DNA of 64,000 bases, from assembly GCF_011045215.1 (NCBI RefSeq), contig NZ_CP049201.1; one strand, given 5' to 3'. Made by a program: the position numbers and the translations under genes. Numbering within the stretch: the stretch's first letter is position 1; the number at the start of each line of letters is the position of its first letter. Shown here in pieces: positions 9,289 to 26,703 of the stretch. Under the pieces are notes generated by a model. The model ran no database searches and was not told the DNA's origin. It saw only the letters and a program-made list of their open reading frames with translations. Origin of the DNA: Escherichia coli (GTDB lineage Bacteria > Pseudomonadota > Gammaproteobacteria > Enterobacterales > Enterobacteriaceae).

Positions 9289-10451
9289 TCTTTATCTTCT
9301 TCATTACTCGGGTTATCAGTTTCTTTCAACGCTCTTCTTATCTTAGTTAATGCTTCAACAGGCAAATTATTAAATGTTAGGCTTTGGTTTTCGTCATCAT
9401 AATATATTTTAGCATCAGTTGTGACACCGAGTAAATCCTTGTCGAAGTGAAAGCTCAATGATGGGGTTTTATATATCACATTGCGGATTTTATCTAAGGA
9501 GTTTTTATTGATTACGAACTCTGATGGGATTCTGACTTCCTCACTATTGAGGTGTTTCATTAATTTATCAACAAGTTCTGTTTTTTCTTCCTCTTTTAAA
9601 TAGGACATATGGCCTGAAGCAAGCGATTCGATATCAGAAAGCCTTGCAGAGTGCTCGTTGTCAAATTGCTTTTCTAAGTATTTGATAACATCATTTCTAA
9701 ATGACTCTGCTTGATTTTTTAAAAGAGGTTCTTTCTTAAAGAAACGCCTTATTTCATCTGGTAACTTACGGGTTGCGCCTGCTGAAGCAATCCCCTTGTC
9801 ACATCCTAATGCTGCTATAAAATATGCTGCCGCTGACTGTCCCGTAGTTTTGCTTATAAAGCTTAGATAACTTAAGTCTGTTTTTTTTAAATCATCTGCT
9901 TTTTGGTATTCTTCATAATATCTGAAATTTATTTTTGCTGCTTGGTTAATATTACCAAGTTCTAAGTGAATCATTTCCTCTGGCTCTAAATTTTCACTAA
10001 TAGTTACGCCATTAGTTTTTTTGATCATTGTAACCAATAGATAACGGAAACCAGATAAAATATAATCAGTAAAAACAACATATCCTCCAGAAGCCCAAAT
10101 CTGCTCTTGAGCAGATTTATACATTTGTTTCATAACTTCCTTCGATAATTCAATGAAATCATTTGAAACAGATTGTTGAACTAAAGAGTATTTATGAAAT
10201 AGTTCTGGTATAGGGCCTTGTTTTGTTTTATTTTTAATAAAAACACCATAATGCGCTGAGTTCCCTTTTGAACCATACAAATCAATAACACCGTCTACTA
10301 ATTTTTTTACTATATCATTTGTTTTATCTAGTTCTGTATCACGAAGATTGTATGGTTTGGAGTGATCGAAGTCTTTATTAGATTCTTTTAAGAGCTCATG
10401 AACGATTACGTGGCGTATGCTTGCTTTGCTCATTTTTTTGGTCAATTCCAT
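9285..10451 (-). CDS. NdpA/YejK-like (NA37 family) nucleoid-associated-protein homologue, 388 aa; candidate sensor of two-gene cassette
   Basis: Motif-level resemblance to recalled E. coli YejK: N-terminal IRHVIVHELLK, central GGYVVFTDY...YLLVTMIK...ISENLEP, YLSFISKTTGQSAAAYF, C-terminal SLTFNNLP. AT-rich (~30% G+C in a 60-nt spot check). Confidence 0.75.
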   Translation of the reverse strand: MELTKKMSKASIRHVIVHELLKESNKDFDHSKPYNLRDTELDKTNDIVKKLVDGVIDLYGSKGNSAHYGVFIKNKTKQGPIPELFHKYSLVQQSVSNDFIELSKEVMKQMYKSAQEQIWASGGYVVFTDYILSGFRYLLVTMIKKTNGVTISENLEPEEMIHLELGNINQAAKINFRYYEEYQKADDLKKTDLSYLSFISKTTGQSAAAYFIAALGCDKGIASAGATRKLPDEIRRFFKKEPLLKNQAESFRNDVIKYLEKQFDNEHSARLSDIESLASGHMSYLKEEEKTELVDKLMKHLNSEEVRIPSEFVINKNSLDKIRNVIYKTPSLSFHFDKDLLGVTTDAKIYYDDENQSLTFNNLPVEALTKIRRALKETDNPSNEEDKE

Positions 10452-16990: not shown

Positions 16991-18498
16991 TGGCAATTCT
17001 TGATGATGTGATTGGCGTTTTTTCACCAGGATGGAAAGCGGCAAGGCTGCGTTCCCGTGCGGTGATCCAGGCTTATGAGGCCGTAAAAACGACGCGGACA
17101 CACAAAGCCCGACGGGAGAACCGAACTGCCGACCAGTTAAGCCAGTACGGGGCCGTGTCGTTACGTGAGCAGGCCCGTTACCTTGATAACAACCACGATC
17201 TGGTTATTGGTGTATTTGACAAGCTGGAAGAACGGGTGGTGGGGAAAAACGGGATTATTGTCGAGCCACATCCGGTATTACGCAATGGGGCCATTGCCCG
17301 TGACCTGGCTGCGGAGATTCGCACCCGATGGAGTGAATGGTCTGTCAGCCCGGAAGTCACCGGGCAGTTTACCCGTCCGATGCTGGAACGTCTGATGCTT
17401 CGTACCTGGCTGCGCGATGGTGAGGTGTTTGCCCAGATGGTTTCCGGGCGCATAAACAGCCTGACGCCTTCTGCCGGTGTTCATTTCTGGCTGGAGGCGC
17501 TCGAGCCGGACTTTATTCCCATGACCAGTGATGAGAGCAACAGGCTGAATCAGGGCGTGTTTGTTGATGACTGGGGGCGTCCCGAAAAATATCTGGTGTA
17601 TAAAAGCCGTCCCGTATCCGGACGGCAGATGGAAACCAAAGAAGTGGATGCAGAGCGAATGCTGCATCTTAAATTTGTTCGCCGTCTGCACCAGATGCGC
17701 GGGACGTCTTTATTGTCCGGTGTGCTGATCCGCCTCAGTGCCCTGAAAGAGTATGAAGATTCTGAGCTGACTGCAGCAAGGATCGCCGCCGCTCTGGGGA
17801 TGTACATCCGGAAAGGCGACGGGCAGAGCTATGAAGCGGATGGTAATGGCAGCAAGGATAAGGAACGCGAGCTTACCATTCAGCCAGGCATTATTTACGA
17901 TGATCTGAAACCCGGCGAAGAAATCGGAATGGTGAAGTCGGATCGCCCAAATCCTAACCTTGAAACTTTTCGTAATGGTCAGTTGCGTGCCGTGGCGGCG
18001 GGCAGTCGTCTGAGTTTTTCCAGTACAGCGCGCAACTATAACGGCACTTACAGCGCCCAGCGTCAGGAGCTGGTTGAATCCACTGATGGCTACCTGATCC
18101 TGCAGGACTGGTTTATTGGTGCCGTCACCCGTCCGATGTATCGTGCCTGGCTGAAACAGGCTGTGGCATCCGGTGTTATCAGGCTACCCCGCGATCTTGA
18201 CCTTTCTTCACTGTATACCGCGGTGTATTCCGGACCGGTGATGCCGTGGATTGACCCTGTTAAGGAGGCTGAGGCCTGGAAAATCCAGATTCGTGGTGGA
18301 GCGGCGACAGAATCAGACTGGGTACGTGCTGGTGGTCGTAATCCGGATGATGTCAAACGTCGGCGCAAGGCCGAAATTGATGAAAACCGCAAGCTGGATC
18401 TGGTATTTGATACCGATCCGGCCAGTGATAAAGGAGGCAGCAGTGCCGCAACGAAACGACAGGAGCCGCAGCACACCGACGACCAGTCCGAAGAATAA
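16990..18498 (+). CDS. Portal protein
   Basis: ATG at 16990 overlaps gpW stop (ATGA); ~500 aa, position after terminase and W. Confidence 0.8.
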   Translation: MAILDDVIGVFSPGWKAARLRSRAVIQAYEAVKTTRTHKARRENRTADQLSQYGAVSLREQARYLDNNHDLVIGVFDKLEERVVGKNGIIVEPHPVLRNGAIARDLAAEIRTRWSEWSVSPEVTGQFTRPMLERLMLRTWLRDGEVFAQMVSGRINSLTPSAGVHFWLEALEPDFIPMTSDESNRLNQGVFVDDWGRPEKYLVYKSRPVSGRQMETKEVDAERMLHLKFVRRLHQMRGTSLLSGVLIRLSALKEYEDSELTAARIAAALGMYIRKGDGQSYEADGNGSKDKERELTIQPGIIYDDLKPGEEIGMVKSDRPNPNLETFRNGQLRAVAAGSRLSFSSTARNYNGTYSAQRQELVESTDGYLILQDWFIGAVTRPMYRAWLKQAVASGVIRLPRDLDLSSLYTAVYSGPVMPWIDPVKEAEAWKIQIRGGAATESDWVRAGGRNPDDVKRRRKAEIDENRKLDLVFDTDPASDKGGSSAATKRQEPQHTDDQSEE

Positions 18499-18511
18499 TT
18501 CCTGGTTCAGG

Positions 18512-20470
18512 ATGCAGGCTGGTCACCAGAGTGACGCGGATATTTATATTTATGACGAGATTGGTTTCTGGGGTGTTACAGCGAAGCAGTTTATCAGTGA
18601 TCTGAATGCACTGGGCGATATCACCCATATTAATCTCCATATTAATTCACCGGGTGGCGATGTCTTTGAAGGCATCGCCATTTTTAATGCACTGAAAACA
18701 CATGGTGCGTCCATTACCGTTTATGTCGACGGTGTGGCGGCGTCAATGGCGTCGGTCATTGCGATGGTGGGAAACCCGGTCATTATGCCGGAAAACACCT
18801 TCATGATGATTCATAAACCATTTGGCTTTACGGGCGGTGATGCGGAGGACATGCGCACCTATGCCGACCTGCTCGATAAAGTTGAGGCGGTTCTGTTACC
18901 CGCTTATGCACAGAAAACCGGGAAAACCACCGATGAAATTGCTGCCATGCTGGCGGATGAGACCTGGATGTCCGGTGCCGAATGTCTGGCACATGGATTT
19001 GCTGATCAGGTAACGCCAGCCGTTAAGGCAATGGCATGTATTCAGTCAAAACGTACAGAGGAATTTAAAAAGATGCCGGAATCCATTCGAAACATGATTA
19101 CTCCGCCACGCAACAGTGCTCCACGCGTACAGGATAATGAACCTGAAGCCTCCCGGACGCCAGTGCAGGCAGCAGCACCCGTGGTGGATGAAAACAGCAT
19201 CCGTGCGCAGGTACTGGCAGAGCAAAAAGCGCGTGTAAACGGTATTAATGATCTGTTTGCCATGTTTGGCGGGCGTTATCAGACGCTGCAGGCTCAGTGT
19301 CTTGCCGATCCTGAATGTTCGCTGGAGCAGGCCCGCGAAAAGCTGTTGAACGAGATGGGGCGCGAGTCCACGCCATCCAATAAAAATACCCCGGCTCATA
19401 TTTATGCCGGTAACGGTAATTTTGTGGGGGACGGGATCCGCCAGGCGCTGATGGCGCGTGCCGGATTTGAAAAAACCGAACGTGATAATGTCTACAACGG
19501 GATGACCCTGCGTGAATATGCCCGTATGTCACTGACTGAACGGGGTATTGGGGTTTCCAGTTATAACCCGATGCAGATGGTCGGTGCGGCGTTCACACAC
19601 AGTACGTCTGACTTCGGTAATATTCTGCTGGATGTTGCGAACAAAGCCATTCTGCAGGGCTGGGAAGATGCCCCTGAAACCTATGAACAGTGGACGCGGA
19701 AAGGTCAGTTGTCTGATTTTAAAATTGCCCATCGTGTGGGTATGGGGGGCTTCAGTGCTCTGCGTCAGGTGCGTGAAGGGGCGGAATATAAATACGTCAC
19801 CACCGGAGATAAACAGGCCACTATTGCACTGGCGACCTATGGCGAGCTGTTCAGTATCACCCGTCAGGCCATTATCAATGATGATCTGAATATGCTGACC
19901 GATGTCCCGATGAAACTGGGCCGTGCGGCGAAATCCACTATTGCCGATCTGGTTTATGCCATTCTGACGTCTAACCCGAAAATCTCCACAGATAATGTAA
20001 GTCTGTTCGATAAAGCGAAACATGCAAACGTACTGGAGAGCGCTGCAATGGACGTGGCATCGCTGGATAAAGCCCGCCAGTTGATGCGCGTTCAGAAAGA
20101 GGGGGAGCGTCATCTGAATATTCGTCCTGCGTTCGTACTGGTACCGACGGCGATGGAGTCTGTTGCTAACCAGGTCATTCGCTCCTCAAGTGTCAAGGGG
20201 GCTGACATTAACGCCGGTATTATTAACCCGGTGAAAGATTTTGCGACCGTTATTGCAGAGCCTCGTCTTGATGATAACAGCCAGACCACCTTCTACCTGG
20301 CTGCGTCAAAAGGCTCCGATACGATTGAAGTGGCTTATCTCAACGGTGTGGATACGCCATATATTGATCAGATGGAGGGCTTCAGTGTGGATGGCGTGAC
20401 AACGAAAGTGCGTATTGACGCCGGTGTCGCGCCAGTTGATCACCGCGGTCTGGTGAAATGTACGGCGTAA
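18512..20470 (+). CDS. Prohead protease (ClpP/S49-like) fused to major capsid protein (Gifsy-2-type head)
   Basis: N-terminal ClpP-like region (IYIYDEIGFWGV...INSPGGDVFEGIAIFNAL...MASVIAMVGN) continuous with ~450 aa capsid-like region. Confidence 0.75.
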   Translation: MQAGHQSDADIYIYDEIGFWGVTAKQFISDLNALGDITHINLHINSPGGDVFEGIAIFNALKTHGASITVYVDGVAASMASVIAMVGNPVIMPENTFMMIHKPFGFTGGDAEDMRTYADLLDKVEAVLLPAYAQKTGKTTDEIAAMLADETWMSGAECLAHGFADQVTPAVKAMACIQSKRTEEFKKMPESIRNMITPPRNSAPRVQDNEPEASRTPVQAAAPVVDENSIRAQVLAEQKARVNGINDLFAMFGGRYQTLQAQCLADPECSLEQAREKLLNEMGRESTPSNKNTPAHIYAGNGNFVGDGIRQALMARAGFEKTERDNVYNGMTLREYARMSLTERGIGVSSYNPMQMVGAAFTHSTSDFGNILLDVANKAILQGWEDAPETYEQWTRKGQLSDFKIAHRVGMGGFSALRQVREGAEYKYVTTGDKQATIALATYGELFSITRQAIINDDLNMLTDVPMKLGRAAKSTIADLVYAILTSNPKISTDNVSLFDKAKHANVLESAAMDVASLDKARQLMRVQKEGERHLNIRPAFVLVPTAMESVANQVIRSSSVKGADINAGIINPVKDFATVIAEPRLDDNSQTTFYLAASKGSDTIEVAYLNGVDTPYIDQMEGFSVDGVTTKVRIDAGVAPVDHRGLVKCTA

Positions 20471-22146: not shown

Positions 22147-22890
22147 ATGACCACACCAAATCCACTGGCAAAAACGAAAGGTGCGGGAACGACGTTCTGG
22201 ATGTACACCGGCAAGGGCGATGCGTTTGCGAACCCTTTATCGGACACTGACTGGCTGCGTCTTGCGATGGTGAAGGATCTGCAGCCTGGCGAAATGACCG
22301 CTGATGCAGAAGATGACACTTATCTCGATGATGAAGATGCAGACTGGAAAACGACAACCCAGGGGCAGAAATCCGTCGGTGATACTTCGGCGACGCTGGC
22401 CTGGCGTCCGGGTGACAGCGGGCAGAAAAAACTGGTTCAGTTGTTCGACGCCGGTGAAGTCTGCGCGTTTCGTATCAAATATCCCAACGGTACTGTTGAT
22501 GTTTTCCGTGGCTGGCTGAGTTCACTGGGTAAAACCATTGCCTCAAAAGACGTGATGACCCGCACAGTGAAAATCAGCGGTGTGGGGCGTCCGTATCTGG
22601 CAGAAGAAGGTACTGAAACCGTGGGCGTTACCGGGCTGACGGTGGCACCGGCATCTGCCAGTGTAAAAGTGGGAGCAACCACCACGCTGACCTTTACAGT
22701 AAAACCTGACGGAGCCAGTGACAAAGCGATCAGTGTGCATTCGACAGATCCACAGACTGCCACGGTGACCCTGAACGGGCTTGTGGCCACGGTGAAAGGC
22801 GTGAAGCAGGGCAGTGTCAGCATTGTGGGCATGACTTCTGACGGCGATTTTGTGGCAGTGGCTGCGGTGGCTGTCAGCGCAGCAGGTTAA
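22147..22890 (+). CDS. Major tail protein (lambda V-like) with C-terminal Ig-like domain
   Basis: KGAGTTFWMYTG, NPLSDTDW, YLDDEDADW, NGTVDVFRGW as in recalled lambda gpV; AGGAGG RBS upstream. Confidence 0.85.
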   Translation: MTTPNPLAKTKGAGTTFWMYTGKGDAFANPLSDTDWLRLAMVKDLQPGEMTADAEDDTYLDDEDADWKTTTQGQKSVGDTSATLAWRPGDSGQKKLVQLFDAGEVCAFRIKYPNGTVDVFRGWLSSLGKTIASKDVMTRTVKISGVGRPYLAEEGTETVGVTGLTVAPASASVKVGATTTLTFTVKPDGASDKAISVHSTDPQTATVTLNGLVATVKGVKQGSVSIVGMTSDGDFVAVAAVAVSAAG

Positions 22891-22901
22891 CAGGACGATA
22901 C

Positions 22902-22927
22902 TCATCATTTGCCCCGGTTATCCGGGG
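22902..22927 (+). terminator. Hairpin plus T-tract after major tail gene
   Basis: gccccgg-ttat-ccggggc followed by tttttt. Confidence 0.4.
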
Positions 22928-22947
22928 CTTTTTTGCAGGTGGAGAAC

Positions 22948-23337
22948 ATGATGTTTCTGAAACAGGGCACGTTTAATTATGAAAAGCAGTCCGTGGTGCT
23001 CAGTGAGCTGTCCGGGCTGCAGAGAATTGAATATCTGGCGTTTGTTCAGCAGCGAACGGCAAAGTTTGATGCCGAAGAGGGAGAACTGCCGGAGGCTGAA
23101 CGACAGATTGCTTTTCTGCGGATGGGGATGGATATCAATGCCTGGCTGGTTTCCCGCTCACTGTGGAATGCGGATCAGTCTAAGGATGTTGAGACGCTTT
23201 GCGCATCCGTTATTACAACATGGTCGTATGATGCCCTGGGAGCGGGGGCGGAGATGGTTCTGTCGCTGAGCGGTATGGGAGCCATTGAGAATGCCGGGGA
23301 TTTGGAGCATGAGGTGCTGACGCCGGAAAAGTCCTGA
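22948..23337 (+). CDS. Tail assembly chaperone (lambda G-like)
   Basis: MMFLKQG...SVVLSELSGLQRIE resembles lambda G N-terminus; ATG at 22948/22951 with GGTGGAG RBS. Confidence 0.75.
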   Translation: MMFLKQGTFNYEKQSVVLSELSGLQRIEYLAFVQQRTAKFDAEEGELPEAERQIAFLRMGMDINAWLVSRSLWNADQSKDVETLCASVITTWSYDALGAGAEMVLSLSGMGAIENAGDLEHEVLTPEKS

Positions 23338-23345
23338 CGCGGGAA

Positions 23346-23675
23346 ATGCAGTTTGTCATGCGGCTTGCCCGGGAGTTCCGGCGGGCAGACTGGCGGCGGA
23401 TGCTGTCGGAAATGTCGGCCACTGAGCTTGGTGAGTGGGGCGATTATTTCCGGATGCAGAGCTTCAGTGATGTGTGGATGGATGCGCAGTTTGCCTCGCT
23501 GAAGGCATTGATCGTGAGAATGGTGTCCGGTAGCAGTGATGCTGCGGTGGCTGATTTCAGCCTTTTACCGGAAGAGAACGGGATACCGGAGCGAACGGAC
23601 GAAGAACTGATGCATCTTGGGGAAGGTATTTCCGGAGGTGTGCGTTATGGACCAGATAGCCAACCTGGTCATTGA
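23346..23675 (+). CDS. gpT-like segment; likely expressed only as G-T fusion by -1 programmed frameshift
   Basis: ORF in -1 frame relative to G, open from 23313; overlaps G 3' end; candidate slippery site GGAAAAG at 23325..23331. Confidence 0.55.
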   Translation: MQFVMRLAREFRRADWRRMLSEMSATELGEWGDYFRMQSFSDVWMDAQFASLKALIVRMVSGSSDAAVADFSLLPEENGIPERTDEELMHLGEGISGGVRYGPDSQPGH

Positions 23676-26600
23676 TTTGGGGATTGATGCGGCAGAGTTT
23701 AAAAATGAAATTCCCCGTATCAAAAACCTTCTGAATGGTGCAGCCAGCGATGCAGAACGGTCTTCTGCCCGTATGCAGCGTTTTATGGAGCGTCAGACTC
23801 AGGCCGCCCGGCAGACAATGCAGGCGGCTTCTTCGGCTGCAACAGCCGCATCCGTCCATGCGCAGACGGTGGAGAAGAGCGCACAGGCTCATGAACGCAT
23901 GGCCCGCGAGGTGGAGCAAACCCGCCAGCGTATGGAGGCACTGAGCCAGAAAATGCGCGAGGAACAGGCGCAGGCCATGGCTCTGGCGGAGGCTCAGGAT
24001 AAAGCGGCTGCTGCGTTTTATCGTCAGATTGACAGTGTGAAACAGGCCAGTGCGGGGCTGCAGGAATTACAGCGTATTCAGCAGCAGATCCGACAGGCCA
24101 GAAACAGTGGCGGGATTGGTCAGCAGGATTATCTGGCGCTGATTTCTGAGGTTACTGCGAAAACTCGAGTTCTTACACAGGCTGAGGAAGAGGCTACCCG
24201 ACAGAAAGTGGCGTTTATCCGTCAGCTTAAAGAGCAGGCAACCCGCCAGAATCTTTCATCTTCTGAGTTGCTTCGTGCTAAGGCAGCCCAGCTGGGGGTA
24301 AGCAGTGCTGCAGAAGTGTATATCCGCAAAATGGAGCAGGCAGGAAAAGCCACGCATTCGCTGGGGCTGAAAAGTGCAGCGGCCCGCCAGGAGATAGGCG
24401 TTCTGATAGGTGAACTGGCCCGCGGCAATTTAGGGGCGCTGAGAGGATCCGGGATAACGCTGGCTAACCGTGCCGGATGGATAGACACACTGATGTCACC
24501 GAAAGGCATGATGCTGGGCGGGGTTATTGGCGGTATTACCGCGGCCGTCTATGGTCTGGGTAAAGCCTGGTATGACGGTCAGAAGGAGGGGGAAGAATTT
24601 AACCGCCAGCTGTCGCTGACGGGGCACTATGCCGGAGTCACTGCCGGGCAACTGTGGACGCTCAGTCGTGCTATTTCCGGGAATGGTATCACGCAACATG
24701 CTGCAGCCGGTGCGCTGGCTCAGGTGGTGGGGAGTGGCGCATTTCGTGGAAACGATATCGGTATGGTGGCGAGAGCTGCCGCACAGATGGAGCGATCGGT
24801 TGGCCAGTCGGTCAGCGATACCATAAATCAGTTTAAGCGGCTGAAGGATGATCCTGTAAATGCCGCGAAGGCTCTGGACAATGAGCTGCATTTTCTTACT
24901 GCCACTCAGCTTGAGCAGATACGCGTCCTTGGGGAGCAGGGGCGGTCCAGTGATGCTGCACGGATAGCCATGTCTGCACTGGCAGAGGAAACCGGTCGGC
25001 GTACTGCGGATATTGATAATAACCTCAATGCGCTTGGCAGTACGCTGAAGTATCTGTCTGATTTGTGGAGTCGTTTCTGGGATGCGGCCATGAATATTGG
25101 TCGTGAAGACTCGCTGGATGAACAGATTGCCGCTTTACAGGAGAAAGTGTCGCGGGCGAAAAGACTCCCCTGGACGGCATCATCTTCTCAGGTTGAATAC
25201 GATCAGCAGCGTCTTAACGATCTTCAGGAGAAAAAACGCCAGAAGGATTTGCAGGATGCAAAAGAGCAGGCAGAGCGGAATTATCAGGAGCAACAGAAAC
25301 GACGTAATGCTGAAAATGCTGCACTGAACCGGATGAATGAAACGGAAGCAGCACGACATCAGCGTGAAATTGCGCGTATTAATGCCATGCAGTACGCCGA
25401 TCAGGCTGTCAGGGATGCGGCGATACAACGTGAAAATGAACGTTACGAGAAAGCCCTGGCATCCGGTAAGAAAAAAACACGCGAACCCCGTAATGATGAG
25501 GCCACCCGGTTATTGCTGCAGTACAGTCAGCAACAGGCACAGGTGGAAGGGCAGATTGCTGCTGCCAGACAGTCAGCAGGCATTGCCACGGAAAGGATGA
25601 CAGAAGCGCATAAACAGCTTCTGGCTCTGCAGCAGCGCATCAGCGACCTGGACGGGAAAAAACTGACGGCAGATGAAAAGAGTGTGCTGGCCCGTAAAGA
25701 TGAACTGATTCAGGCACTGACGCTGCTGGATGTAAAACAGCAGGAGCTTCAGAAACAGACGGCACTCAACGAGCTGAAGAAAAAAACAATTCAGCTGACC
25801 AGTCAACTGGCTGAAGAAGAGCGCGCTCAGCGTCAGCAACATGACCTGGATATCGCCACGGTGGGTATGGGTGATCAGCAGCGGCAGCGATATCAGGTAC
25901 AACTGAGTCTTCGCCAGAAATACCAGCAACAGCTGGAGCAGTTGAGGCGGGATAGTGAGCAGAAAGGAACATATAACACGGATGACTACAGAAAGGCCGA
26001 GCAGGCGCTGACGGAGAGCCTGAACCGACAACTGAATGAGAATCGCCGTTATTGGCAACAGCTTGAAATTGCTCAGGGTGACTGGAAAAACGGAGTCCTG
26101 CGTGCACTCCAGAATGTCACTGAGAAAGCGGATAACACAGCCGGGACAGTGGAACAGTTGTTCACGTCTGCGTTCAGTAGCATGAGTGACTGGCTGGCGA
26201 CATTCTGTACTACAGGCAAACTCAATTTCAAATCCTTCACCTCTTCTGTGCTGTCAGATATGTCCAGAATCATGGCTCAGATAGCTTTAATGAAAGCGGT
26301 AAAAGGTATTGCTTCCGCGCTGCCTTTTGATTTTGTAGCCAATGCTGATGGCGGTGTTTATCAGTCGGCTGATTTGAGTCGCTACAGTGGCACGGTGGTT
26401 AACCGTCCGACGTTTTTTGCTTTTGCAAAAGGCGCGGGTGTGATGGGGGAAGCTGGACCTGAAGCCATTCTGCCACTGCGTCGTGGTGCTGACGGTAAGC
26501 TGGGGGTTGTGGCGGATATTGGTGGTTCAGGTATGGCGATGTTTGCCCCGCAGTACAACATTGAGATCAATAACGATGGCACGAACGGGCAGATAGGTCC

Positions 26601-26703
26601 GGCTGCCCTGAAGGTGGTTTATGACCTTGGGAAAAAAGCGGCAGCGGACTTTATGCAACAGCAGGCCCGTGATGGTGGTCGGTTAAGTGGAGCATATCGG
26701 TAA
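23647..26703 (+). CDS. Tail tape measure protein (lambda H-like)
   Basis: ~1018 aa, coiled-coil-rich, Gly-rich segment; position between G-T and M. Confidence 0.85.
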   Translation: MDQIANLVIDLGIDAAEFKNEIPRIKNLLNGAASDAERSSARMQRFMERQTQAARQTMQAASSAATAASVHAQTVEKSAQAHERMAREVEQTRQRMEALSQKMREEQAQAMALAEAQDKAAAAFYRQIDSVKQASAGLQELQRIQQQIRQARNSGGIGQQDYLALISEVTAKTRVLTQAEEEATRQKVAFIRQLKEQATRQNLSSSELLRAKAAQLGVSSAAEVYIRKMEQAGKATHSLGLKSAAARQEIGVLIGELARGNLGALRGSGITLANRAGWIDTLMSPKGMMLGGVIGGITAAVYGLGKAWYDGQKEGEEFNRQLSLTGHYAGVTAGQLWTLSRAISGNGITQHAAAGALAQVVGSGAFRGNDIGMVARAAAQMERSVGQSVSDTINQFKRLKDDPVNAAKALDNELHFLTATQLEQIRVLGEQGRSSDAARIAMSALAEETGRRTADIDNNLNALGSTLKYLSDLWSRFWDAAMNIGREDSLDEQIAALQEKVSRAKRLPWTASSSQVEYDQQRLNDLQEKKRQKDLQDAKEQAERNYQEQQKRRNAENAALNRMNETEAARHQREIARINAMQYADQAVRDAAIQRENERYEKALASGKKKTREPRNDEATRLLLQYSQQQAQVEGQIAAARQSAGIATERMTEAHKQLLALQQRISDLDGKKLTADEKSVLARKDELIQALTLLDVKQQELQKQTALNELKKKTIQLTSQLAEEERAQRQQHDLDIATVGMGDQQRQRYQVQLSLRQKYQQQLEQLRRDSEQKGTYNTDDYRKAEQALTESLNRQLNENRRYWQQLEIAQGDWKNGVLRALQNVTEKADNTAGTVEQLFTSAFSSMSDWLATFCTTGKLNFKSFTSSVLSDMSRIMAQIALMKAVKGIASALPFDFVANADGGVYQSADLSRYSGTVVNRPTFFAFAKGAGVMGEAGPEAILPLRRGADGKLGVVADIGGSGMAMFAPQYNIEINNDGTNGQIGPAALKVVYDLGKKAAADFMQQQARDGGRLSGAYR

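What the first reader, a model, noticed from the sequence alone, without database searches (positions are those of the whole stretch)
23313..23346. Programmed -1 frameshift site for G-T tail chaperone fusion with non-canonical heptamer
Seen in sequence: the T-frame ORF is open from 23313 and overlaps the last 8 codons of G (stop at 23335..23337) in the -1 frame. The only slippery-like heptamer in the overlap is G GAA AAG (23325..23331) rather than the lambda G GGA AAG. Established knowledge: G-T frameshifting is conserved in long-tailed phages.
Basis: partly seen in the sequence, partly recalled or inferred. Interest (0 to 1): 0.35.

Follow-up and report, generated by a model that had tools for sequence, protein, structure and literature searches.

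The report
Lambda-type G-T tail chaperone frameshift site
This is the ordinary, already-annotated -1 ribosomal frameshift site that lambda-like phages use to make a small amount of a fused G-T tail-assembly chaperone; its heptamer G GAA AAG differs from lambda's by one base, but it is the commonest version in the relatives sampled here.

Summary
G (22948..23337, Pfam Phage_TAC_2) stops at TGA 23335..23337. The -1 frame (Pfam Phage_tail_T) is open from 23313. The only in-phase shift-prone sequence in the 22-nt overlap is G GAA AAG (23325..23331).

At the homologous position, lambda has G GGA AAG, Stx phages have A AAA AAG, and 16 of 26 sampled G-T protein clusters have G GAA AAG. Those 16 include N15, HK225, phi80, mEp213 and Gifsy-2.

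All seven bases are invariant across the 16 clusters, including synonymous positions that vary freely nearby. The annotated T start (ATG 23346) is Met in only 5 of the 16. It has almost no Shine-Dalgarno sequence, and invariant T-frame residues lie upstream of it.

No conserved downstream RNA structure exists. An SD-like GAGGTG lies 8 nt upstream but varies among relatives.

The heptamer is not a discovery. The N15 GenBank record marks exactly GGAAAAG as "slippery sequence for -1 translational frameshift". The junction occurs in 1847 of 5426 complete E. coli genomes, where RefSeq calls T as a separate gene.

Verdict: real, functional, already known, low interest. Frameshift efficiency and the fusion product remain untested.

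The parts
22147..22890 (+). Major tail (tube) protein gene, a gpV homologue with a C-terminal Ig-like domain. It is the binding partner expected for the T part of the fusion.
   Evidence: Pfam Phage_TTP_12 at 1.2e-66 and Big_2 at 2.2e-11. The coordinates match the annotated major tail protein of Ayreon and mEp460.
22911..22936 (+). Terminator-like hairpin GCCCCGG-TTAT-CCGGGGC followed by TTTTTT, lying between V and G.
   Evidence: Found by the terminator scan. Annotated as a terminator in Ayreon and mEp460. A stem-loop sits at the same place in N15 and HK225.
22948..23337 (+). Gene G, the tail assembly chaperone and zero-frame product. It is 129 aa from ATG 22948; RefSeq starts it at ATG 22951.
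   Evidence: Pfam Phage_TAC_2 at 2.2e-39. ORF list. SD-like GGTGGAG upstream at -7.0 kcal/mol.
23311..23316 (+). SD-like GAGGTG 8 nt upstream of the heptamer. It is a candidate stimulator, not a conserved one.
   Evidence: Anti-SD duplex energy is -9.2 kcal/mol, reached by 3.2% of background positions in G genes. The element is weaker in mEp460-type alleles (GAGGCG) and absent in the N15/phi80/HK225 group.
23325..23331 (+). Shift site G GAA AAG. tRNA-Glu and tRNA-Lys slip from GAA AAG to GGA AAA.
   Evidence: Sequence. Homologous to lambda G GGA AAG. Invariant in 16 clusters. The identical heptamer is annotated as the slippery sequence in N15.
23313..23675 (+). The -1 frame ORF (T). The part translated in the fusion is 23331..23672. 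The predicted G-T fusion is 22948..23331 joined to 23331..23675, which gives 242 aa.
   Evidence: Translation. Pfam Phage_tail_T at 5.1e-15. Fusion built and aligned, where K128 and E133 are invariant and lie upstream of ATG 23346.
23647..26703 (+). Tape measure protein gene, a gpH homologue. It is the binding partner expected for the G part.
   Evidence: Pfam TMP_2 at 6.3e-49, Tape_meas_lam_C at 1.6e-23 and TMP_4.

Best explanation
This is the programmed -1 ribosomal frameshift site of a lambda-type G/G-T tail assembly chaperone pair, in an mEp460/cdtI/Ayreon-type lambdoid prophage of E. coli.

Most ribosomes translating G read CCG GAA AAG TCC and stop at TGA, giving the 129-aa chaperone G. 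A small fraction slips back one base on G GAA AAG. The likely arrangement is tRNA-Glu in the P site and tRNA-Lys in the A site. AAG re-pairs to AAA, which is cognate. GAA re-pairs to GGA, which keeps positions 1 and 3 and puts a G:U at position 2.

These ribosomes then read GTC CTG ACG CGG GAA ATG... and make a 242-aa G-T fusion with the junction ...LTPEK-VLTREMQF.... By homology with lambda, the G part binds the tape measure protein and the T part recruits the tube protein. A low frameshift rate sets the large excess of G over G-T.

Shown here: the anatomy, the homology, and nucleotide-level selection on the heptamer. Inferred: the frameshift itself, its efficiency, and the two-tRNA mode.
For: 1. 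Gene order is V-like, G-like, T-like, H-like, with significant Pfam hits for all four.

2. T lies in the -1 frame relative to G, and the overlap is only 22 nt.

3. In all 186 matching phage records, the fused query matches as two pieces in different frames.

4. Different heptamers sit at the homologous position, all in phase. Lambda, whose G-T frameshift is experimentally established (Levin 1993, cited in PMC5009743 and PMC3296357), has G GGA AAG. Stx phages have A AAA AAG. The window, Gifsy-2, mEp213, HK225 and phi80 have G GAA AAG.

5. Among 26 clusters of G-T proteins (80% identity), 16 carry G GAA AAG.

6. In those 16, all 7 bases are invariant. The preceding codon changes its amino acid (Pro, Ala or Leu) but always ends in G. 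The heptamer Glu is GAA 16:0, while an equally invariant Glu five codons downstream is GAA 7: GAG 9 (Fisher p = 8e-4). Lys is always the rarer codon AAG.

7. -1 frame residues upstream of ATG 23346 are conserved; K128 and E133 are invariant. The ATG itself is Met in only 5 of 16 clusters, and its anti-SD energy is -1.1 kcal/mol against -7 to -13 for G, V and H.

8. Isolated phages carry this junction sequence at 97.9-99.6% identity across the 801-nt query; Ayreon, mEp460 and Tritos were read and have the identical heptamer, and cdtI and phi458 match at 98.6% and 99.4%.

9. The N15 record annotates GGAAAAG as 'slippery sequence for -1 translational frameshift'. Gifsy-2 and HK225 annotate T as part of a frameshift hybrid.

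10. A_AAG is the most shift-prone tetramer in E. coli (PMC4066793). GAA-to-GGA re-pairing through G:U is discussed for the GGGGGAA chaperone sites of actinobacteriophages (PMC10885494).
Against: There is no direct measurement for this clade.

In a reconstituted E. coli system, AUG GAA AAG gave mainly zero-frame product and was used as the 'less slippery' control (PMC6924986).

The A_AAG tetramer alone is barely above background without a strong stimulator (PMC4066793), and no conserved stimulator was found here. The consensus fold is -3.99 kcal/mol with zero covariation. The window's downstream fold has z = -0.96. Rfam gave no relevant match. The SD-like element is not conserved.

The clusters share ancestry, so the conservation statistics overstate independence.
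Confidence: 0.9

Rival explanations
1. The frameshift happens at this site, but only the A-site tRNA-Lys slips on the tetramer A_AAG. The first three bases of the 'heptamer' (G GA) play no part in re-pairing.
For: A second-position mismatch for tRNA-Glu on GGA is considered unfavourable (PMC6924986). Natural sites such as G_CGA_AAG in IS1222 use A_AAG with a non-repairing P-site codon (PMC5009743). Relatives exist with G GCA AAA TAG, with A GAA AAG TAA, and one with G GCA AAG (L122), where the P-site tRNA cannot re-pair well.
Against: In 16 of 16 clusters the base before GAA is G even though the amino acid it helps encode varies between Pro, Ala and Leu. GAA is never GAG, although GAG is used freely at another invariant Glu nearby. 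That -1 frame GGA codon is not translated in the fusion, so coding cannot explain the constraint. Except for the single locus L122, all variants with a P-site codon that cannot re-pair have the stop codon directly after the Lys codon, which suggests compensation.
Confidence: 0.3
2. T is made as a separate 109-aa protein from ATG 23346, as RefSeq and most phage records annotate it. This could happen by re-initiation after G terminates 8 nt upstream. There would then be no programmed frameshift.
For: An ATG lies 8 nt after the G stop. PGAP and most GenBank records call this CDS. Some other tail genes in the window also lack an SD.
Against: The codon is Met in only 5 of 16 clusters; it is Leu in 8, Ile in 2 and Arg in 1. 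No other conserved start exists. Invariant -1 frame residues K128 and E133 lie upstream of it. Its SD energy is -1.1 kcal/mol. It would not explain the nucleotide-level conservation of the heptamer. In lambda the functional species is the G-T fusion (PMC5009743).
Confidence: 0.05
3. RNA polymerase slippage on the A run, or a decayed prophage in which the G/T overlap no longer has a function.
For: The window is a prophage-like region. Many prophages are defective.
Against: The A run is only 4 bases long, far shorter than the long homopolymeric runs on which transcriptional slippage is known to occur (established knowledge; not checked in a paper here). Isolated phages carry a nearly identical junction sequence, 97.9-99.6% identical across the 801-nt query. 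Both ORFs are intact with strong Pfam matches.
Confidence: 0.02

Closest known systems
Bacteriophage lambda G / G-T programmed -1 frameshift (Levin, Hendrix and Casjens 1993; Xu, Hendrix and Duda 2004, 2013, 2014; as summarised in PMC5009743)
   Same: Same gene order (V, G, T, H), same protein families, same -1 direction and same position of the shift site. The Lys of the heptamer is an invariant alignment column. As in lambda, no conserved stimulatory RNA structure is found.
   Different: The heptamer is G GAA AAG instead of G GGA AAG, a difference of one base. The P-site tRNA is therefore tRNA-Glu re-pairing to GGA with a G:U at position 2, rather than tRNA-Gly re-pairing to GGG. The G stop is 1 codon after the site rather than 5. 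The G-T proteins are only about 36% identical.
Phage N15 genes 14/15, and their relatives HK225, phi80 and mEp213
   Same: The heptamer GGAAAAG is identical and in the same phase and position. It is explicitly annotated in the N15 record as 'slippery sequence for -1 translational frameshift'.
   Different: The preceding codon is GCG (Ala) rather than CCG (Pro). The stop lies 5 codons downstream. There is no SD-like element upstream. G-T identity to the window is about 37-38%.
Gifsy-2 prophage STM1039/STM1041.1n (Salmonella)
   Same: The junction CCG GAA AAG TCC TGA is the same. It is annotated as 'part of G+G' frameshift hybrid protein'.
   Different: About 54-55% protein identity. The codon at the window's ATG 23346 is a Leu codon (CTT).
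A_AAG tetramer sites such as G_CGA_AAG of IS1222, and the E. coli dnaX A AAA AAG site
   Same: All rely on the single E. coli tRNA-Lys (mnm5s2UUU) slipping from AAG to AAA (PMC5009743 and PMC4066793).
   Different: Those sites depend on strong stimulators: a pseudoknot or hairpin, plus an SD for dnaX. No conserved stimulator is found here. The expected efficiency here is low.
GGGGGAA ('fivetwo') tail chaperone slip sites of actinobacteriophages (PMC10885494)
   Same: The same tRNA-Glu re-pairing from GAA to GGA through a G:U pair, in the same kind of gene pair.
   Different: There the Glu codon occupies the second (3') codon of the motif, not the first, and there is no Lys codon. The proteins and hosts are unrelated.

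Membership tests
Lambda-type G/G-T tail assembly chaperone frameshift | Two overlapping ORFs located between the major tail protein gene and the tape measure gene | tested here: met
   Pfam Phage_TTP_12 upstream, and TMP_2 with Tape_meas_lam_C downstream. ORF map.
Lambda-type G/G-T tail assembly chaperone frameshift | The upstream ORF is a gpG homologue and the downstream ORF is a gpT homologue | tested here: met
   Phage_TAC_2 at 2.2e-39 and Phage_tail_T at 5.1e-15. Alignment with the lambda G-T fusion.
Lambda-type G/G-T tail assembly chaperone frameshift | The downstream ORF is in the -1 frame and has no start signal of its own | tested here: met
   Frames. The ATG is Met in only 5 of 16 clusters. 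SD energy is -1.1 kcal/mol.
Lambda-type G/G-T tail assembly chaperone frameshift | An in-phase shift-prone sequence inside the overlap, conserved at the homologous position | tested here: met
   G GAA AAG at 23325..23331. All 7 bases are invariant in 16 clusters. The same heptamer is annotated in N15.
Lambda-type G/G-T tail assembly chaperone frameshift | The fusion protein is made at a few per cent of G and is required for tail assembly | not testable with these tools
   This needs a reporter assay, a western blot or genetics. The only support here is indirect: isolated phages (Ayreon, mEp460, Tritos read directly) carry the same site.
Canonical simultaneous-slippage heptamer X XXY YYZ | Positions 1-3 are identical, and positions 4-6 are identical | tested here: not met
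   Positions 1-3 are G, G, A. The site fits the 'twofour' class of PRFect (PMC10885494) and contains the Z_ZZN tetramer A_AAG (PMC4066793).
Stimulated bacterial -1 frameshift signals (dnaX, IS3, IS911 type) | A conserved downstream hairpin or pseudoknot 5-9 nt after the site | tested here: not met
   The window fold has z = -0.96. The consensus of 19 diverged sequences is -3.99 kcal/mol with a zero covariation term. No relevant Rfam match.
Stimulated bacterial -1 frameshift signals (dnaX, IS3, IS911 type) | An upstream SD-like sequence about 10 nt before the site | tested here: inconclusive
   GAGGTG lies 8 nt upstream in the window (-9.2 kcal/mol, the top 3.2% of background). It is strong in some relatives, weak in mEp460-type alleles and absent in the N15 group.

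The most novel reading that the evidence does not exclude
G GAA AAG may be a genuine two-tRNA slippery heptamer that extends the X XXY YYZ rule. The P-site tRNA-Glu would re-pair to GGA through a middle-position G:U.

This would explain why the base before GAA is G in 16 of 16 clusters even though its amino acid varies. It would also explain why relatives without a re-pairable P-site codon place the stop directly after the Lys codon (one singleton, L122, is an exception).

Both slipping tRNAs (Glu and Lys) carry mnm5s2U34. The G:G-T ratio of this very common prophage family could therefore be even more sensitive to the host Tus/MnmA thiolation state than lambda's.

It would also mean that the sequence used as a 'non-slippery' control in vitro (PMC6924986) is the natural shift site found in about a third of E. 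coli genomes.
Probability: 0.5. Interest if true: 0.3.

Novelty: already known. Interest (0 to 1): 0.15.

Why it matters
It matters mainly for annotation. RefSeq (PGAP) and most phage records call T as a free-standing 109-aa gene, or an even shorter one in Ayreon, instead of a G-T fusion made by ribosomal slippage. This junction is present in 1847 of 5426 complete E. coli genomes.

For frameshift rules it is a small reminder. Natural low-efficiency sites need not fit X XXY YYZ. A heptamer treated as poorly slippery in vitro is under clear nucleotide-level selection in vivo. It does not open a new question.

Tried and rejected
1. Downstream stimulatory RNA. The 100 nt after the site fold no better than shuffles (z = -0.96). 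RNAalifold on 19 diverged G GAA AAG loci gives -3.99 kcal/mol with zero covariation. Rejected.

2. Known RNA families. An Rfam scan of 23100..23600 at E <= 10 gave only three sub-threshold chance hits to unrelated families.

3. Upstream SD-like stimulator. It is present in the window but not conserved. I kept it only as a candidate.

4. Independent initiation of T. Rejected because the start codon is not conserved and has no SD.

5. Chance occurrence. The bare heptamer is as frequent as expected in the window, so I made no argument from its presence alone.

6. Literature. Full-text searches for GGAAAAG or 'GAA AAG' together with phage, tail and slippery terms found no open-access paper that describes this heptamer as a G-T shift site. 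Only the in vitro study PMC6924986 turned up. Xu et al. 2004 is not held, so I could not check whether it lists this heptamer.

7. My first regex anchors missed 21 loci and then 18 loci. I replaced them with an anchor on LA[RH]E at +12 codons. Ten loci from the second scan still lacked the anchor and were left out.

Full report
**What is in the sequence**

The G frame reads ...GAG CAT GAG GTG CTG ACG CCG GAA AAG TCC TGA, with the stop at 23335..23337. In the -1 frame a TGA at 23310..23312 closes the frame. That frame is therefore open from 23313 and runs to 23675. The overlap holds 7 sense codons.

I compared each zero-frame codon in the overlap with the codon one base upstream. Only AAG>AAA keeps cognate pairing. 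Only GAA>GGA keeps two Watson-Crick positions, with a possible G:U in the middle.

The bare heptamer is not rare: it occurs 12 times in the window against 10.0 +/- 3.4 expected. Its presence alone proves nothing.

**What the genes are**

- ORF 22948..23337 is a gpG homologue (Pfam Phage_TAC_2, 2.2e-39).
- The -1 ORF is a gpT homologue (Phage_tail_T, 5.1e-15).
- Upstream lies a lambda-type tail tube protein with an Ig-like domain.
- Downstream lies a tape measure protein.

The DNA is 97.9-99.6% identical to phages Ayreon, mEp460, cdtI, phi458, Tritos and others. It is 100% identical to a prophage of E. coli 55989. The junction is present in 1847 of 5426 complete E. coli genomes.

None of the records I looked at joins G and T. 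RefSeq calls T as a separate 109-aa CDS from ATG 23346, and Ayreon starts it later still.

**Comparison with relatives**

A tblastn search with the predicted fusion found 186 phage records, and the match was split into two frames in every one. I read the junction in 12 phage records and in 136 IMG/VR loci from two scans. Of these, 140 loci could be anchored. They gave 88 distinct G-T proteins in 26 clusters at 80% identity.

At the homologous, in-phase position the clusters carry:

| Heptamer | Clusters | Examples or notes |
|---|---|---|
| G GAA AAG | 16 | the window, Gifsy-2, N15/HK225, phi80/mEp213 and several uncultivated lineages |
| G GGA AAG | 2 | lambda and PhiR5_1 types |
| A AAA AAG | 1 | Stx phages |
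| G GCA AAA TAG, G GAA AAA TAG, A GAA AAG TAA | 8 | the Lys codon directly abuts the stop |

The sample is biased towards relatives of my two queries. Within it, the 'non-canonical' heptamer is the majority form.

**Evidence of selection on the nucleotides**

I took one representative from each of the 16 G GAA AAG clusters. Their G proteins are roughly 29-98% identical to the window. All seven bases are invariant.

- The preceding codon encodes Pro (11), Ala (4) or Leu (1), yet always ends in G. The codon before that ends in G in only 8 of 16 (Fisher p = 0.002).
- The heptamer Glu is GAA 16:0. An equally invariant Glu five codons downstream in the T frame is GAA 7: GAG 9 (Fisher p = 8e-4).
- Lys is always AAG, the minor Lys codon in E. 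coli (0.24; PMC3296357).

The clusters share ancestry, so these p-values are upper bounds on significance. The contrast with neighbouring synonymous sites is still plain.

Amino-acid conservation switches frame exactly at the heptamer. Upstream, the -1 frame peptides are unrelated. From the Lys onward they read K-[VA]-[LF]-x-x-E-x-x-F...LAREF in all lineages.

**Why T is not made on its own**

- The codon at ATG 23346 is Met in 5 of the 16 clusters, Leu in 8, Ile in 2 and Arg in 1. No other start is conserved.
- The invariant residues K128 and E133 of the fusion lie upstream of that ATG.
- The anti-SD pairing energy ahead of it is -1.1 kcal/mol, against -7.0 for G, -13.0 for V and -13.1 for H.

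Re-initiation after the G stop cannot be excluded for this one allele. It would explain neither the conserved heptamer nor the conserved upstream residues.

**Stimulators**

The 100 nt downstream fold no better than shuffled sequence (z = -0.96). Nineteen diverged loci share no structure: the consensus is -3.99 kcal/mol and the covariation term is 0. Rfam finds nothing relevant.

The window has an SD-like GAGGTG 8 nt upstream (-9.2 kcal/mol, top 3.2% of background). Some relatives have stronger versions, such as AGGAGGTG at -13.0. mEp460-type alleles have GAGGCG at -5.6. The N15, phi80 and HK225 group has none. It may tune efficiency in this allele, but it is not a defining part.

**Mechanism**

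Established knowledge:
- A_AAG is the most shift-prone tetramer in E. coli, because one tRNA-Lys (mnm5s2UUU) reads both AAA and AAG (PMC4066793 and PMC5009743).
- Lambda needs only about 4% frameshifting (PMC3296357), which gives G in roughly 30-fold excess over G-T (PMC5009743).
- A reconstituted system found AUG GAA AAG 'less slippery' than G GGA AAG and giving mainly zero-frame product (PMC6924986).
- A_AAG alone is near background without a stimulator (PMC4066793).

Inference from the comparative data: position 1 (G) and the GAA codon are constrained even though the -1 frame GGA codon is never translated. Variants whose P-site codon cannot re-pair place a stop right after the Lys codon, apart from one singleton (L122, G GCA AAG). 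This favours a contribution from P-site tRNA-Glu re-pairing to GGA through G:U. The same re-pairing is discussed for the GGGGGAA chaperone sites of actinobacteriophages (PMC10885494).

I put about 0.55-0.6 on two-tRNA slippage and about 0.3 on A-site-only slippage. Both tRNAs carry mnm5s2U34, the modification shown to tune lambda G/G-T frameshifting (PMC3296357).

**Known or new**

The N15 GenBank record carries a misc_feature 'slippery sequence for -1 translational frameshift' at 10027..10033. Those bases are GGAAAAG, in the same phase and at the same position. Gifsy-2, which has the identical junction CCG GAA AAG TCC TGA, annotates T as part of a frameshift hybrid. HK225 labels its T 'tail assembly protein GT'.

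The site and its heptamer are therefore already known. I could not find an experimental measurement for this heptamer in a phage context, and Xu et al. 2004 is not held.

**Verdict**

This is an ordinary, already-known feature of low interest. Its practical value is as an annotation correction: G-T should be a joined CDS.

Noticed in passing
window 22911..22936: A strong terminator-like hairpin (7 G-C pairs, loop TTAT, then TTTTTT) lies between the tube gene V and the chaperone gene G. Ayreon and mEp460 annotate the same element as a terminator. N15 and HK225 have a stem-loop at the same place. It may lower G/T/H expression relative to V.
   Followed up: partly
window 23311..23316: An SD-like GAGGTG lies 8 nt upstream of the shift site. 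Its anti-SD energy is -9.2 kcal/mol, in the top 3.2% of background positions. 7 of 26 distinct G GAA AAG contexts score in the top 7% or so. The element is weak or absent in many relatives, and the acidic, Gly-rich coding sequence of the G tail confounds the comparison.
   Followed up: partly
L068, L069, L073, L076-L079, L090-L092 (G GCA AAA TAG); L070 (G GAA AAA TAG); L080, L081, L083 (A GAA AAG TAA): Eight clusters of G-T relatives have a different shift-site design. The Lys codon directly abuts the G stop codon, and the P-site codon cannot re-pair well. This looks like an A-site-only slip helped by a 'shifty stop'. L090-L092 also have an in-phase G GAA AAG four codons upstream.
   Followed up: partly
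L122 (IMG/VR, N15-like cluster), junction GCG GCA AAG CCC: This is the single locus in which the heptamer is G GCA AAG instead of G GAA AAG, in an otherwise intact G-T pair. It could be a sequencing error, a decaying prophage or a tolerated variant.
   Followed up: no
window 23332..23334 and the same position in relatives: The codon after the heptamer is constrained at the nucleotide level. The -1 frame Val is GTC in 10 of 10 cases, and the third base is C in 15 of 16 clusters. The zero-frame codon is TCC, CCC or CGC. This may be a 3' context effect on shifting or shared ancestry.
   Followed up: no
window 23346..23675; RefSeq NC_011748 EC55989_RS08775; Ayreon SJJBTUD_0012: Public annotation is inconsistent. 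PGAP and most phage records call T as a stand-alone 109-aa CDS. Ayreon starts it 22 codons later. Only N15, Gifsy-2 and HK225 note the frameshift. The junction occurs in 1847 of 5426 complete E. coli genomes.
   Followed up: yes
window 18251..20470: A long ORF (739 aa as listed) upstream of the tail genes looks by eye like a prohead protease fused to a major capsid protein. I did not run it through any family search.
   Followed up: no
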